Shown here in pieces: positions 48,001 to 54,000 of a DNA stretch of 64,000 nucleotides; within the stretch, counting starts at the first letter, position 1, and every line of letters begins with the position of its first letter. The position numbers are program-made. The stretch comes from Escherichia coli. Its GTDB lineage: Bacteria; Pseudomonadota; Gammaproteobacteria; Enterobacterales; Enterobacteriaceae. The stretch lies in the NCBI RefSeq assembly GCF_030013595.1, contig NZ_CP122769.1; one strand, given 5' to 3'.

Positions 48001-51000
48001 TACATTGCACGTCGCTCCGAGGAACGCCAAAAAAGATTATGACTGGGGCTCAAACCGTTCTGTACTTCTAAAATTGTCGACGAATGAAGTTATGCAGATG
48101 GCATCTGTATTTCTTAGAATCATGCATACTTTAAAAATTGATAAGAGGAAAACCTCACATCATGGCCACGTCGTATACAAAAATATAAGCGTTACCCCAA
48201 ACGAGAGGGGCGGTTTGTTGTTATCAGCAGGGATAGTTCCAGTCGATAAAGACGGCTTAAAACCCTTCATGCACATGGTCCCCGTCTCACAAATGGACTG
48301 CGTTAAAATTGGCCTCTACATACTTGGATATCTTGCTCAAAAAACGCCTTGGGTAAGCTCCGAGTCTATAATTACCGCGCTTCGCTTATCTGAAGCCAAG
48401 AATTCAAAATAGCGTATTAACATACGGAATACATGGAAAAATACAGGTTTTTTTAAATGTTATACGAACGGATATTTCTGTTTTTCATCGTAAAGTGAGT
48501 TTAATTTTGCTCAGAAAAACAGGTATTCGTCATGAGAAAATCAGGTTTAGGTTTAGCCCTGTTGTTTTCTTTAATTGCTCCGATTAAAGCGGTCTATGCC
48601 GAAGCGATTATGATTTCAGGAAAGCTACAGGCTGATTTGCCAGCCGTATCCTTTGACCCGGGGCCGGGCGACTTTGTTGCATACGTTAATTCTAACACTA
48701 TCACTGCCTCAGGTGCAGGCACAGCCTGTAATGTAACGGTTGATGATCGAGCGACTTCCTCTGTTGATAACCTCGTTTGTTTTTTTGAGTGGTTACCCAA
48801 TACCTTGGGATTTACTTCTAACGGTTTCACTCTTTCAGGCGTTCCCAACACCACCGGTGATTTAAAACTACCTTACAAGATTTCTTACTTCTCTGGTCTT
48901 GAACGGAAAAAAGTTGAAATAGTAAAAGGTGAATATTCAATCAAAAGTGTGGCACCGGTAAAACCTACTATCACCGGTCTTAAATCATCCCTGAACGGAT
49001 TAGTCTATGACGGCTTTTCTTTCAAATCGTATTTAAAGGATGAAGCGATCAAAGATATCGCTGTTTCTGTTGAGCCCCGCAATTATATTCAATACATCTC
49101 AATAGGTTCAGGCTCCGCCTGTGAAGTTCCTATTGGCGGAACTTCCTGTACCATTGAAGTTGGAAGCATTAAGGCCAGTGATACAGATGAACTTTTGGGT
49201 TCACGTGATATCACAATTACAGCAAACTCTAAGAATAATTATTTCGCACCTCCTGAATCCAAAAAGCTTGTTGTTAACTGGGATTATCGGCCTCCTGTAG
49301 TAGACCATACACTTTGGAATTTTACCGATGAGGCTAAAACAATCAAAGTAGGTGGCCAGGACATCTATACCGGAGCCAAAACCGTTGCTGTGGCCGTTAA
49401 GGTACCCCAGCAAGAAACAGAAGGTGAATGGTGGCTCCCAACAGCTATGTCGCTCACTATGACTCCGGATGGCGTGTTTAAACCGACGACTAAAGTGACT
49501 TTAGATGATGGCACTGAGATTGATTTCAAACAGTCCTGGGCAACCCCTTTACGTAGAACTTTACAGCCGGTAAGTGGACCTCAAAAAGTCGGTGATGAGT
49601 ACCTCTATATCTTCGACTTAACGGATCTTATAAACGGGTCCTACGCAGCGACTTTTACAGTAGAAAATACGAGCAAAAACTCTTCTACGTACACTGAGCC
49701 TGAAAGCAAACTGATGCTGTCTGATAACCCAACGCTTATGGTTCTCAAAGATGGGCAGGTATTAACTAAACGAGCACCCGTATACTTCCTGAACGAGATT
49801 ATCGTTGCAGCTTTCCAGGGGCAGGCTGGGGTTGCTGACATAAAATCAGTAACAATAGACAACAAAGTAGTTTCGTTAACACCTACAAATTATAGAGGTA
49901 TTTACTACCTGCCGGTTGGAGACGATTTAGCAGTTAATTCGGATCACGAGATTACTGTGGTGGCTGAAAACCTTTATGGAAAAAACGTTAATTTCAGTAC
50001 CGTTTTCACTTATCAACCTACTGGATTCACTCTCAAGAATCTGGAAAAAAACGTAACTCTTTACTCGCGTGTACGTCAGTATACGGACCTGCTTAGTCAA
50101 ACAGCTGGTGATAAATGCACTCTGTTTACCACAGAGGAAAATGCGAATGCTTACCTCGCCTGGTATGGGGAAAAATCAGATGTTACAGCATGCTACCCTC
50201 AGTGGAACAATGTCCCTGATGGGTTGGAGTTCTATTTTAAAGGACGTACCCCGGGTCTAACTGGATTCTTTAATAAAACAGGTGAGAATCTGCTCGACTA
50301 TCAAGTCTATATGATTAACGGGAAGGGCTCTAAAGCGGTATCCGCAAGGAATCGCCGTACTCTGACCACACAATTACCATACAACCCGATCATCTCTTAC
50401 AAAAAGAATAAAGTCATAGCTGGCATCAATCCGAACACTGCTCTGGCTTATACGACCGGGGGGAGGCCGCTCGAATATTAGCGAAGGTGGTACCAGCTGA
50501 CGTTACGATGATCGTCTCTCAAAACGGCTCTGAGGCTGTCAAAACGTCATTTAAAAATCGTTCCTCAAACAACGATGCAACGACCTTTGTACAAAGGGTT
50601 AAGGTTGCTGCTGCACCATTGTGGACAAAGAACGTCTTTGACATAGCTGTAGAATACTCAAAGGATCCAGAATTAAGAACTACAGACACACTCAACGTAT
50701 ATACGGTGCCTGATTTCAATATTCGAGCATCGATGGAAGTGGATGACAGAAAAACAGCCACATCTCTTGAAGTGCCCTTAAAGGTAACAGTGGGGCGTTA
50801 TAACAACTCCACACGTAAAAGTGCATTTGACCGTAAAACAATGGGAGAATGGGACGTCACGATATACTCGCAAAAAAGTGTATACGGCAAAGATCCAGAA
50901 ACAGGCCGTTATAAAACTACATACGAAAGAACTGCGCTGACTGAAGCATTGCCGGTCAATGATGCGGGCATTGTCGAAACCAAGATTAAAATTGAAAATA

Positions 51001-54000
51001 TGGATCTGGGTAATATGCGTCTGGTTGGTGTGGCTAAGGTCAGATCGCCATTCTCTGATTTTGAAATGAAACGTGAGACCAGTGCTGTAGGCATTCGAAT
51101 CTATAAAGGTGAGGAACTGGAGGGTAACCTGTCGAAAAGCCTTATTATCGGAAGGATCCCACTTAGTACTCTGGTAAGCTTCAAATCTGCCAGTACTGCT
51201 AACTCTGACGCACTTGCCCCCACCGAATGGCAGCAGTCCTCTGATAATGGTCAAACCTGGAATATGCTTTCCGACATGACCGGAAAGAGAAGTGTAAGTA
51301 TCAAAAAGACAGAAGTAGGAAAGTGGCTTTATAGGGCAAAAATGACCAATAAATTCACATCTAAGGTTTCCTACACAGATGCCTTAACGGTAGTTACCTA
51401 CAAGCAGCCTAAGCTCAGTATAGATGTGACAGACATTCTTCAGGGCTCAGATGTACCTGTAACCCTGCTTGATAACGATGAGCCTATACCAGCAGGCACC
51501 GCTGAGGTTCTCTGGTCAGAGGATAAAGTCAACTGGGTGCAGGGAGATACAACTTACACTGTGGCTTCAGCTGATACCCTACCGTCTACGATTTATGCCC
51601 GGATGCGTTACCTTGATTCCGATGAACTGGCAGAGGAGTCTTCATGGAAGGAAACGTCTGCTCGGTTGGCAGCCGCAAAACCCAAGCGCCTTTCTGTCTC
51701 GGTAACGGGGGTTTCTAAGGTAGAGGTTGGTCAAAAAGTTACTTTGGAAGGTAAGTTCACGAACCCTAACAGTAAGTACCAGAATGGTAATAACGTAGTT
51801 GAAGAATGGAAAACACCGGATGGCCAGACATTTAAAGGCTCTACACTGTCTGTTACCCTTACTGAGCAAATGTTGGATAAACAGGGATATGCTGCTTTTG
51901 AATACAGTGCATGGTTAGCGGACAATAAGGAGAATACGGTTTCTACCCGTAGAGTTTCTGTCAAATCGTGGGTTTATAAATTCCCCGAAATGAAAATAAG
52001 CTCCAAACTTAAATACGACATGGCACCGACCACCCTACGCGTTGCGTTGAGCGGTATTAAGGATGGAGACTATCCTGGTGTTACTTATTCCCGAGAATGG
52101 ATTTACGACAAAGAGAATCTGGTAATCACTAAAGATGAAGGTGACACCAAAGAATTTACAATTGAAAATCCTGGCAAATATACATTGATGGTTGTTTTCA
52201 AAGATAACCGCAACAATGAACAGCGTATCGAAAATACCTTTGTTGTCGATGAACAAACGCCAATGAACGTTGAGATGACACCCAAGTTCTCTAACAAATA
52301 TATGAGAGCTCCACTCGATGTAACCTTAAGGTCAAACATCAAGCTATCTCATTCGGCGGACTCGATAGATACGGTCACATACAAGGTGAACGGTGAGGTA
52401 ATACCCAGCGGCAAAAATTATTGGGCTCAACTGATTTCGGGTTTAAAAGAAAAGAAATACGAGATCACAATTGATGTTGTTAGTAAACTTGGACAGAGAG
52501 GTTCAGCATCTGTTGAGTTTGATGTCGTTAAAAACGCAGTGCCTAATTGTACATTGAGCTACACGGAAACCAACCTAAGCTGGAGCTTTACCAATAAATG
52601 TGATGATACTGATGGAAAAATGGTTAGATATGAATGGTTCATCAACGGAGAATTAAGGAACGTTTTCGGTAGTACGGCTACACTTTCTAAAAACCTTAAC
52701 CGTGGTAAGCAGGACATAAAAGTAATTGCTTATGATGATAGTGGAGACTTTGCAACGCAGCACGTGACAGTTTTCGGACCGGCTGAAGAGGCAAGTAAGT
52801 CTGAAAACACTGTATCAATACCAAGCAGTGAGTAATAAATTTTTAAATATAAAGCCGGGACATTTTGTCCCGGCTTTTTTATGCCCAACAATTGGACCTT
52901 TGAAAAATTAATACCGGAAAGTAACTTTGCTACAAAGGTATCTTTCATGGCCGCTAACAAGGCTGCGTCTACATGCTGAGAAATTAACATCCTTATAGGT
53001 GAATATTAGGTTAGTTTGCAGACTTCCGAGCGTTGAAAAACATGGATAATAGTTACTTGGATAGAGGTGTATCTACTTAGTAAAAATATTCTTCAGTGCT
53101 AGTGAGAAAAATATGAGCGACTACATACCTAAAAAGAGAGGGCTGCTTATACTGGATTGGTATGTCCCCATTAATATTTTATTGCTGATTCTCGTTATGT
53201 GTGTCTTTTTCACCCGTTATACATTTGGATACGGTTTATTGAATGGGTGCCTGCCTGCTGATTTTTATATGATTGATCATTCGGATAAAACTATTAAAAC
53301 TGGTGAACTCATAGCTTTCAACATGCCGAAATCGGTTCGTTTTATCCCAGAAAATGAACGAGTCATAAAAATTGTTGCCGGTGTGGGCGGTGACAAACTC
53401 AAAGTAACAATGGATGGGGTTTATAACGGGGACAAATTTTTTGAAGCTAATGCACGTCGTATTTCAAAGAAATACAGTATTCCGTCCATTTTGATTGAAA
53501 AAGAATTGATAATTCCTGAAGGCGAAGTTTTCCTAATTGGGCAAACCGATCACTCATGGGATTCCCGTTTTTGGGGAACAGTAAAGCTGAATTCAGTAAT
53601 TGGGAAAACATATGCGATCTTTTAATGTAAATAAAAAATATTTACCAATACTTCCTGGACTTGCGTTATGTGCAGTTTTAAGTAATACAAATGCAAGCAC
53701 TGAGTATCAACATGATGCTGACCTAATCGCTCAGCAAGCAAAAGGGCTTGGCGCTCAGGCTAAAGGTGCACAGCAGCCAGATGGGGCTCTTAGCCTTGAT
53801 GCTACGCTAAATTCACCAGATGTGCAGAAGTACATTGCGCAAGCTGAAGCACTCAAAAAAAACCAGGACCTGAGCAGGCAAACAAACCGTGGTTACGTGC
53901 CCGGTATGAATGCGGATAGTGTTCAAGCAGTTATAGACCATACCCAGGCTATAAGGGCCCAAAGTAATAACTCTGATGCTGTCAACGATATAATTAGAAG

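What the first reader, a model, noticed from the sequence alone, without database searches (positions are those of the whole stretch)
48532..52835. Large surface-protein gene apparently split at a G6 homopolymer tract (frameshift, phase variation or sequencing error)
The 649-aa ORF has a signal peptide and ends 6 bp before the 782-aa ORF, which has no signal peptide, no ribosome-binding site and a GTG start. The second frame is open upstream across a G6 run (about 50459..50464), and one extra G would fuse the two into a ~1430-aa (~155 kDa) secreted beta-rich protein. That size matches what I recall for the Ig-like RSP protein of R27, which is required for IncHI conjugation; I cannot verify the homology here. 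A homopolymer at the junction raises the possibility of slipped-strand phase variation.
Basis: partly seen in the sequence, partly recalled or inferred. Interest (0 to 1): 0.5.

Follow-up and report, generated by a model that had tools for sequence, protein, structure and literature searches.

The report
Known conjugation gene rsp, frameshifted
The two reading frames are halves of one well-known IncHI plasmid conjugation gene (rsp), split because a run of seven G's is written as six here, most likely through a sequencing or assembly error rather than a biological switch.

Summary
ORF 48532-50481 (649 aa) and ORF 50487-52835 (782 aa) are separated by a -1 frameshift at a G6 run (50458-50463). 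Adding one G gives a 1434-aa protein identical, apart from S123L, to WP_001232107.1, the "IncHI-type conjugal transfer protein RSP" of IncHI2 plasmids. It is 83% identical to the IncHI1 (R27/pHCM1-type) RSP, and the alignment runs straight through the junction.

Among 1124 public plasmids carrying this locus, about 1094 have G7, 24 have G6 and none has G8. G6 calls go with homopolymer-error-prone assemblies. Of 21 independent G6 loci, 16 carry further homopolymer indels nearby, against 3 of 15 G7 loci (p=0.002).

The window has three more rare homopolymer length changes: T5->T6 in repHI2, A9->A8 intergenic and A8->A7 frameshifting trhK. It also has a unique TC->CT swap, but only one ordinary SNP against its nearest relative over about 61 kb. 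The G7 run is not conserved in IncHI1 rsp.

Best reading: consensus error (~0.68). Rival: a real inactivating slippage mutation in a plasmid whose transfer region is already broken by a genuine IS66-family insertion in trhW (~0.27). Phase variation is unsupported (~0.04). Low interest; the gene and this kind of event are already known.

The parts
48532..52835 (+). rsp gene (IncHI-type conjugal transfer protein RSP), in two frames here; with G7 it is one 4305-nt CDS of 1434 aa
   Evidence: Megablast gave 1125 plasmid records at 95% identity or more, annotated rsp where intact. The pJMA2 CDS is at L001 23533-27837. The repaired translation equals WP_001232107.1 except S123L.
48532..50481 (+). 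5' part as it reads in the window: 649 aa. Residues 1-644 are native RSP; 645-649 (RPLEY) are out of frame, followed by TAG.
48532..48600 (+). Predicted Sec-type signal peptide (23 aa, ...AVYA|EA)
   Evidence: Read from the translation; no predictor was run, so this is an inference.
49597..50022 (+). Bacterial Ig-like domain, Pfam Big_3_3, residues 356-497
   Evidence: i-Evalue 0.001, marginal. It matches the position of the Big_3 domain (residues 331-470) reported for R27 RSP in PMC6764697.
48898..48899 (+). CT where all 38 comparable loci have TC (codon 123: Leu instead of Ser); unique to the window
50458..50463 (+). G6 run, the frameshift site. It is G7 (ACC GGG GGG GAG = T-G-G-E) in about 97% of related plasmids.
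50487..52835 (+). 3' part: ORF of 782 aa from GTG (775 aa from ATG 50508). It encodes RSP residues about 653-1434. The frame is open back to 50409.
   Evidence: The 775-aa product is deposited as 'putative exported protein' on 52 contigs.
27109..27115 (+). A7 run in codons 3-5 of trhK (TraK-type secretin; gene 27103-28373). It is A8 in 99% of relatives. Here it frameshifts the gene after 6 codons.
   Evidence: 10 of 1120 records share A7; 3 of the 6 listed are also G6 records
18870..18877 (+). Intergenic A8 run; A9 in 97% of relatives
9078..9083 (-). T6 (A6 on the coding strand) near the 3' end of repHI2. It is T5 in 1124 of 1125 relatives. The change alters and extends the C-terminus (381 aa against 362 aa).
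54550..57253 (+). Complete IS66-family element (tnpA, tnpB, tnpC intact) inserted in trhW (TrbC_Ftype pilus-assembly gene, 53612-57836). The 8-bp target duplication ATTTATCC lies at 54542-54549 and 57254-57261.
   Evidence: The inner 2693 bp are 100% identical to copies in porcine E. coli.

Best explanation
The two ORFs are the 5' and 3' parts of a single known gene, rsp. It lies in the Tra2 transfer region of an IncHI2 plasmid, between htdA/htdF and trhF-trhW-trhU-trhN. RSP is a protein of about 155 kDa, rich in beta structure and carrying an Ig-like domain. It is exported, binds flagella and the conjugative pilus, and is needed for IncHI conjugation. In nearly all relatives the codons Gly-Gly-Glu are written GGG GGG GAG, which makes a G7 run. 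The window has G6, so the reading frame shifts by -1 and stops five codons later.

The most likely origin of the missing G is a consensus error in the assembly, a homopolymer undercall. It is not likely to be a property of the plasmid. On this reading the real plasmid carries an intact rsp. Shown: the gene identity, the frameshift site, the rarity and one-directional nature of G6, its association with error-prone assemblies, and the error-like difference spectrum of the window. Inferred: that this particular G6 is an artefact. No reads are available to confirm it.
For: (1) Census of 1124 PLSDB records with this locus: the exact G6 80-mer occurs in 24, G7 in about 1094, G8 in 0, and all other states in 6 or fewer. 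The variation is contraction only.
(2) G6 calls track poor homopolymer accuracy. Of 21 independent G6 loci, 16 carry additional homopolymer (5 nt or longer) indels in the flanking 9-37 kb, 131 events in 533 kb. Among G7 loci the figure is 3 of 15, 3 events in 338 kb, all at two known polymorphic T runs. Fisher p=0.0019.
(3) The same long runs contract repeatedly in unrelated G6 assemblies: A8 at L001 29618 in 8, T8 at 41604 in 8, A7 at 20319 in 5.
(4) Seven of the 16 listed G6 records are GenBank-only, and several have many unannotated, broken genes.
(5) The window differs from its nearest relative pJMA2, over about 61 kb of unique sequence, by four homopolymer length changes, one unique TC->CT swap and a single SNP. 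The four changes are T5->T6, A9->A8, A8->A7 and G7->G6. Their frequencies among relatives are 1/1125, 33/1106, 10/1120 and 24/1124. One of them is intergenic.
(6) Among G7 plasmids the natural spectrum is 181 SNPs to 5 homopolymer indels. The window's 4 of 6 is improbable under that spectrum (binomial 7e-6, Fisher 3e-5).
(7) Rare contractions co-occur in unrelated assemblies. Three of the six listed A7 (trhK) records are also G6 records. The only other T6 (repHI2) record is also a G6 record.
(8) The tract is not a conserved feature. IncHI1 has ACT GGC GGG GAA and IncHI1B has ACA GGT GGG GAA for the same T-G-G-E.
Against: No reads are available, so the error is inferred and not seen. Five G6 loci are otherwise clean in 12-37 kb: p2474-MCR1, pHZ003, pSDC-F2_12BHI2, and Logan contigs from SRR30668390 and SRR14311529. 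Genuine G6 alleles may therefore exist. The window's error density, 4 in about 61 kb, is low. Its IS66 copy is 100% identical to reference copies, so the assembly is not grossly bad. Three of the four homopolymer changes hit genes, two of them transfer genes. The same transfer region carries a real IS insertion in trhW. Real decay of a transfer-dead plasmid is therefore a coherent alternative.
Confidence: 0.68

Rival explanations
1. The G6 is a real, fixed slipped-strand deletion that has turned rsp into a pseudogene. The plasmid's transfer system is already disabled by the IS66-family insertion in trhW. On this reading rsp, trhK and the others are decaying or were selected against. The cell would make at most a 649-aa secreted N-terminal fragment with the signal peptide and Ig-like domain. 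That fragment lacks the C-terminal SiiE-like adhesin region, and conjugation would be lost.
For: The IS66-family element in trhW is genuine: complete, with an 8-bp target duplication, and 100% identical to other copies. trhFWUN are regarded as essential for transfer (PMC8417528). Real rsp knock-outs occur in nature and in the laboratory: ISEc27 in pMG101-A and IS26 in pT28R-F2, and IS3-family insertions in CP101353.1 and NZ_CP020493.1. Five G6 loci are otherwise free of homopolymer errors. Two of the window's other rare changes also hit transfer or replication genes.
Against: There is only one SNP against pJMA2 in about 61 kb, too little divergence for several neutral frameshifts. The difference spectrum departs from that of real plasmid divergence (p about 1e-5). 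One of the four changes is intergenic. G6 and A7 co-occur in unrelated, demonstrably error-prone assemblies. No G8 was found among 1124 records. From general knowledge, a mismatch-repair-deficient host could give such a spectrum. It would also be expected to add transitions, and none are seen.
Confidence: 0.27
2. The G run is a contingency locus. Reversible slippage between G7 (ON) and G6 (OFF) switches RSP, and with it conjugation and a surface antigen, on and off in subpopulations.
For: A coding-region homopolymer in a gene for an exposed, motility-reducing protein. G6 appears in several plasmid lineages and host genera, so it is polyphyletic. A few G6 loci are otherwise clean.
Against: 97% of records are ON, 2% are G6 and none is G8. 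G6 correlates with other homopolymer errors. The tract is only 7 nt and is broken by synonymous codons in IncHI1 and IncHI1B rsp. No paper in the searched library links IncHI2 or rsp with homopolymer frameshifting or phase variation.
Confidence: 0.04
3. The split is bridged during expression by programmed -1 ribosomal frameshifting or transcriptional slippage at the G run, so full-length RSP is still made.
For: The G run could in principle let the A-site Gly-tRNA re-pair in the -1 frame.
Against: The arrangement is not conserved; 97% of relatives are simply in frame. The heptamer C GGG GGG is not a canonical X XXY YYZ site, because the P-site codon would re-pair on CGG. The 100 nt downstream fold no better than shuffles (z = -0.54). 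From general knowledge, efficient transcriptional slippage needs longer A/T runs.
Confidence: 0.01

Closest known systems
RSP (R27 ORF R0009) of IncHI1 plasmids; Huttener et al. 2019 (PMC6764697) and 2022 (PMC8730810)
   Same: Same position in Tra2, upstream of trhF. Same size: 1432 aa against 1434 aa when repaired. 83% amino-acid identity, with the alignment continuous across the junction. An Ig-like Big_3 domain sits at the same place.
   Different: The window's copy is the IncHI2 allele and is written with G6, so it reads as two ORFs. The G7 run itself is specific to IncHI2. IncHI1 rsp has a different G7 at gene position 1996.
Intact IncHI2 rsp, e.g. WP_001232107.1 in pJMA2, pSTM6-275 and pN13-01290_23
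   Same: Identical protein after adding one G, except S123L. The flanking 61 kb is nearly identical to pJMA2.
   Different: G6 instead of G7, and a TC->CT swap at codon 123.
Other public G6 copies of rsp (24 PLSDB records, e.g. pFORC82_1, p2474-MCR1, ETEC1706, ETEC1729). Their halves are deposited as 'putative exported protein' (ASF81809.1 and ASF81810.1).
   Same: Same -1 frameshift at the same run, and the same 649-aa plus 775/782-aa ORF pair.
   Different: Different plasmid backbones, 12-55 SNPs from pJMA2 per ~35 kb. Most carry many more homopolymer indels than the window.
IS-disrupted rsp (pMG101-A ISEc27; pT28R-F2 IS26; ps11011-CTX IS3-family)
   Same: Loss of an intact rsp in an IncHI plasmid, associated with loss or reduction of transfer.
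   Different: Those are unambiguous physical insertions. Here the lesion is a single-base homopolymer length change that cannot be told from a sequencing error without reads.
Homopolymer-mediated phase-variable surface genes (poly-G/C contingency loci of Neisseria, Haemophilus and Campylobacter; from general knowledge)
   Same: A G run inside the coding region of a surface-exposed protein, where a change of one base switches the frame.
   Different: Contingency loci usually have longer tracts, show length variation in both directions among accurate genomes and within cultures, and keep the tract. Here there are no G8 alleles, G6 tracks assembly errors, and the tract is absent from IncHI1 homologues.

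Membership tests
RSP / IncHI-type conjugal transfer protein RSP | Full-length sequence homology to R27/pHCM1-type RSP | tested here: met
   The repaired 1434-aa product is 83% identical to pHCM1 RSP (WP_001232104.1) and 84% to an IncHI1B RSP, aligned end to end. It equals WP_001232107.1 except S123L.
RSP / IncHI-type conjugal transfer protein RSP | Location in the Tra2 region, downstream of htdA/htdF and upstream of trhF-trhW-trhU-trhN | tested here: met
   The window is collinear with the annotated pJMA2 Tra2 region. trhF starts at 53113.
RSP / IncHI-type conjugal transfer protein RSP | Bacterial Ig-like (Big_3) domain in the N-terminal half | tested here: met
   Pfam Big_3_3 at residues 356-497, i-Evalue 0.001, marginal. 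R27 RSP has Big_3 at 331-470.
RSP / IncHI-type conjugal transfer protein RSP | Single uninterrupted ORF of about 1430 aa | tested here: not met
   In the window as written the gene is split at G6 into 649 aa plus 782 aa. It would be met with G7.
RSP / IncHI-type conjugal transfer protein RSP | Match to a curated NCBIfam HMM | tested here: inconclusive
   Neither the halves nor the intact pJMA2 protein hit any NCBIfam HMM. The RefSeq name evidently does not come from an HMM in this library, so the test is uninformative.
RSP / IncHI-type conjugal transfer protein RSP | T4SS (trhC)-dependent export, binding to flagella and pilus, requirement for conjugation | not testable with these tools
   Known for R27 RSP only.
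Homopolymer phase-variable (contingency) gene | Tract length varies in both directions among accurate genomes | tested here: not met
   About 1094 G7, 24 G6 and 0 G8 among 1124 records. G6 is associated with other homopolymer errors.
Homopolymer phase-variable (contingency) gene | Tract retained in homologues | tested here: not met
   IncHI1 has ACTGGCGGGGAA and IncHI1B has ACAGGTGGGGAA at the same codons.
Homopolymer phase-variable (contingency) gene | Mixed tract lengths within one culture or read set | not testable with these tools
   No reads are available.
Programmed -1 frameshift / transcriptional slippage gene | Conserved out-of-frame arrangement with a slippery site and a downstream stimulatory structure | tested here: not met
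   97% of relatives are in frame. The downstream 100 nt have z = -0.54 against shuffles. The heptamer is not canonical (read).

The most novel reading that the evidence does not exclude
The IncHI2-specific G7 run in rsp is a low-rate hypermutable switch. It occasionally turns off a costly, motility-reducing, antibody-exposed conjugation factor. The few otherwise clean G6 assemblies, and perhaps this window, would then be genuine OFF variants and not errors.
Probability: 0.04. Interest if true: 0.5.

Novelty: already known. Interest (0 to 1): 0.1.

Why it matters
It matters little biologically. The gene is the characterised rsp, and the same G6 split already sits in two dozen public plasmid records. 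The practical value is for annotation. A reader should treat the two ORFs as one gene (rsp, frameshifted). Phase variation or loss of RSP should not be inferred from the sequence alone. The G7 run in IncHI2 rsp, and the A8 run at the start of trhK, are recurrent homopolymer-undercall sites in public assemblies. Pseudogene calls there should be checked against reads before transfer deficiency is claimed. The trhW disruption by an IS66-family element is the only firmly real lesion in this transfer region. On its own it predicts a plasmid that cannot conjugate.

Tried and rejected
- An NCBIfam scan of both halves and of the intact protein gave no HMM hit, so it was uninformative.
The two halves were run separately: Big_3_3 was found in the first half and nothing significant in the second.
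- I tried to find the window's source record through the unique trhW/IS66 junction. There was no match in complete E. coli genomes and none in genome contigs. No PLSDB record covers the 24.9-kb query fully. The origin and sequencing platform therefore stay unknown.
- I looked for Illumina-type support for G6 through the exact 649-aa product. It is found on 23 contigs, many from Logan. Most of those contigs carry the same recurrent homopolymer contractions, and the platform cannot be read from the accession. This did not settle whether real G6 alleles exist.
- Programmed frameshifting was rejected: no downstream structure, a non-canonical heptamer, and an arrangement that is not conserved.
- 'Two separate genes' was rejected. 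Relatives encode one CDS, and the protein alignment with IncHI1 RSP runs straight through the junction.
- Literature searches for homopolymer, frameshift or phase variation together with IncHI2 or rsp found nothing relevant.
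Full report
**1. Observation**

The window has an ATG-started ORF at 48532-50481 (649 aa). Its N-terminus, MRKSGLGLALLFSLIAPIKAVYA|EA, has the look of a Sec signal peptide. A GTG-started ORF follows at 50487-52835 (782 aa). They are 5 nt apart. The second ORF's frame is open upstream from 50409, so it crosses the run. Inserting one G gives one ORF of 1434 aa and 158.5 kDa. The window (43% G+C) has only two G/C runs of 6 or more. 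No usable Shine-Dalgarno motif precedes the GTG or the next ATG (read).

**2. What the gene is**

Megablast of 48532-52835 finds 1125 plasmid records at 95% identity or more, in Escherichia, Salmonella, Enterobacter, Klebsiella and other genera. Wherever the stretch spans 4305 nt it is a single CDS annotated 'rsp: IncHI-type conjugal transfer protein RSP'. The window is an IncHI2/IncHI2A plasmid backbone. It is collinear with pJMA2 (NZ_MH208235.1) from repHI2 through Tra2, and rsp lies between htdA/htdF and trhF-trhW-trhU-trhN.

The repaired protein equals WP_001232107.1 except S123L. It is 83% identical to the IncHI1 RSP of pHCM1 and 84% to an IncHI1B RSP. The junction region aligns without a break (…NTALAYTTGGEAARILAKVVPADVT…). 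Pfam finds a marginal Big_3_3 Ig-like domain at residues 356-497. R27 RSP has its Big_3 domain at the same place.

RSP is a characterised protein of 155.4 kDa, mostly beta structure. It is exported in a trhC-dependent way, binds flagella and the H-pilus, and reduces motility. Its deletion drops R27 transfer below 3e-7, and the defect can be complemented.

**3. How common the split is**

I searched PLSDB with 80-82-nt probes centred on the run, so that a one-base length difference moves a hit out of the >=99% identity band. Of 1124 records with the locus, the G6 probe is exact in 24, the G7 probe in about 1094, and the G8 probe in none. At most 6 records have some other state. G7 is therefore the normal, in-frame state. 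All length variation is contraction.

G6 occurs in both main IncHI2 rsp sequence lineages. It is found in E. coli, E. fergusonii, Salmonella and Klebsiella from several continents. It is therefore polyphyletic, which points to recurrent mutation or recurrent error.

**4. Whether G6 calls are real**

I fetched 40-kb neighbourhoods of 13 G6 PLSDB records and 5 G7 controls. I also fetched 10 contigs encoding the exact 649-aa product and 10 encoding the intact protein. All were compared with pJMA2, excluding a repeat array.

- Of 21 independent G6 loci, 16 have further single-base indels in homopolymers of 5 nt or more: 131 in 533 kb. Individual records reach up to 83 homopolymer deletions in ~35 kb (p280_40A).
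- Of 15 G7 loci, 3 have such indels: 3 in 338 kb, all at two T runs that are lineage polymorphisms. Fisher p=0.0019.
- The extra events are almost all deletions and recur at the same long runs in unrelated assemblies: A8 at L001 29618 in 8 loci, T8 at 41604 in 8, A7 at 20319 in 5, A8 at 28857 in 4.
- Several G6 records show many missing, broken genes in their annotation, and 7 of the 16 listed are GenBank-only.

This is the signature of systematic homopolymer undercalling. Five G6 loci are otherwise clean: p2474-MCR1, pHZ003, pSDC-F2_12BHI2, and contigs from SRR30668390 and SRR14311529. A minority of genuine G6 alleles therefore cannot be excluded.

**5. The window itself**

Against pJMA2, over about 61 kb of unique alignable sequence, the window differs as follows:

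| Position | Change | Location and effect | Frequency among relatives |
|---|---|---|---|
| 9078-9083 | T5->T6 | 3' end of repHI2; ORF becomes 381 aa instead of 362 aa | 1 of 1125; that record is also G6 |
| 18870-18877 | A9->A8 | intergenic | 33 of 1106 |
| 27109-27115 | A8->A7 | codons 3-5 of trhK; reads MIKKRA* instead of MIKKKGLGF… | 10 of 1120; 3 of the 6 listed are also G6 |
| 50458-50463 | G7->G6 | rsp frameshift | 24 of 1124 |
| 48898-48899 | TC->CT | rsp codon 123 (Ser to Leu) | none of 38 other loci |
| 8426 | one ordinary SNP | | not counted |

Two further differences are a complete IS66-family insertion and rearrangements in a repeat array.

Among G7 plasmids the natural divergence spectrum is 181 SNPs to 5 homopolymer indels. 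Four homopolymer changes among six differences is very unlikely under that spectrum (binomial 7e-6, Fisher 3e-5). It matches the spectrum of lightly error-bearing assemblies such as pFLI21_4 and the ETEC1706/ETEC1729 plasmids. From general knowledge, a mismatch-repair-deficient host could also enrich homopolymer indels. It would add transitions too, and none are seen.

**6. What argues the other way**

The IS66-family element at 54550-57253 is real. It has three intact ORFs and an 8-bp target duplication, ATTTATCC. Its inner 2693 bp are 100% identical to copies in porcine E. coli. It interrupts trhW, one of the trhFWUN genes regarded as essential for transfer. The plasmid is thus probably already unable to conjugate, and real decay of rsp and trhK would fit with that. 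Real rsp knock-outs by IS elements are documented. Against this reading stand the near-absence of substitutions, the intergenic A-run change and the co-occurrence pattern described above.

**7. Phase variation and recoding**

A contingency locus should show ON and OFF lengths in both directions in accurate genomes, and it should keep its tract. Here there is no G8. G6 tracks errors. The tract is an IncHI2-specific by-product of GGG GGG GAG codons; IncHI1 has ACT GGC GGG GAA and IncHI1B has ACA GGT GGG GAA. No paper in the library links rsp or IncHI2 with homopolymer switching.

Programmed -1 frameshifting is rejected. The out-of-frame arrangement is not conserved. C GGG GGG is not a canonical slippery heptamer. 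The 100 nt downstream fold no better than shuffles (z = -0.54).

**8. Verdict**

The finding is the known gene rsp carrying a one-base contraction of its G7 run. My estimates are:

- Assembly or consensus artefact: about 0.68.
- Real inactivating slippage mutation in a transfer-dead plasmid: about 0.27.
- Phase variation: about 0.04.
- Recoding: about 0.01.

Only reads or resequencing can decide between the first two. In either case the feature belongs to an already known gene and an already known kind of event, and the interest is low.

Noticed in passing
window 54550-57253 (target duplications 54542-54549 and 57254-57261); trhW 53612-57836: A complete IS66-family element (tnpA 216 aa, tnpB 115 aa, tnpC 523 aa) is inserted in the TrbC_Ftype pilus-assembly gene trhW, with an 8-bp duplication ATTTATCC. 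The inner 2693 bp are 100% identical to copies in porcine ETEC genomes. This junction was not found in any searched collection. It probably makes the plasmid unable to conjugate.
   Followed up: yes
window 27103-28373, A7 run at 27109-27115: trhK (TraK-type secretin) is frameshifted after 6 codons because an A8 run is written as A7. Only 10 of 1120 related plasmids share this, and half of those listed also have the rsp G6.
   Followed up: yes
window 9003-10148 (- strand), T6 at 9078-9083: repHI2 has a +1 change in a T5 run about 20 nt before its stop codon, giving a 381-aa ORF instead of 362 aa. Only 1 of 1125 related plasmids shares it (pFLI21_4, also a G6 record).
   Followed up: partly
window about 35620-39160: An array of diverged repeats (copies 76-87% identical, offsets of roughly 250 bp and its multiples) lies between the TraC-family gene and parA. 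Its arrangement differs between the window and pJMA2, and it accounts for nearly all the apparent mismatches there.
   Followed up: no
window about 7740-8570: Tandem repeats with a period of about 80 bp (about 80% identical) lie next to repHI2. They may be iterons. The single ordinary SNP against pJMA2 (8426) lies in them.
   Followed up: no
window about 4561-6981 (+) and 11256-13712 (-): Two further large 'Ig-like domain-containing protein' genes flank the replication region, by collinearity with the pJMA2 annotation. Their relation to RSP/RSP2-type Big proteins was not examined.
   Followed up: no
L040 (pHCM1, IncHI1) rsp gene position 1996; L001 position 46510: IncHI1 rsp has its own G7 run about 70 nt downstream of the IncHI2 site. 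IncHI2 backbones have a G8 run just past the toprim-domain gene, outside the window. Both are likely to attract the same kind of homopolymer miscalls.
   Followed up: no
L019 (CP101353.1) 18112-22416; NZ_CP020493.1 (H1); NZ_MT499884.1 (H2): Some G7 plasmids have rsp physically interrupted by an IS3-family element in two records. In H2 the match spans about 75 nt more than the query. This shows that real loss or alteration of rsp occurs in the field.
   Followed up: partly
L001 21649 (T9/T8) and 21856 (T6/T7), equivalent to window about 46648-46656 and 46855: Two intergenic T runs upstream of htdA vary in length among otherwise clean, high-quality plasmids. They appear to be genuine lineage polymorphisms, unlike the rsp G run.
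   Followed up: partly
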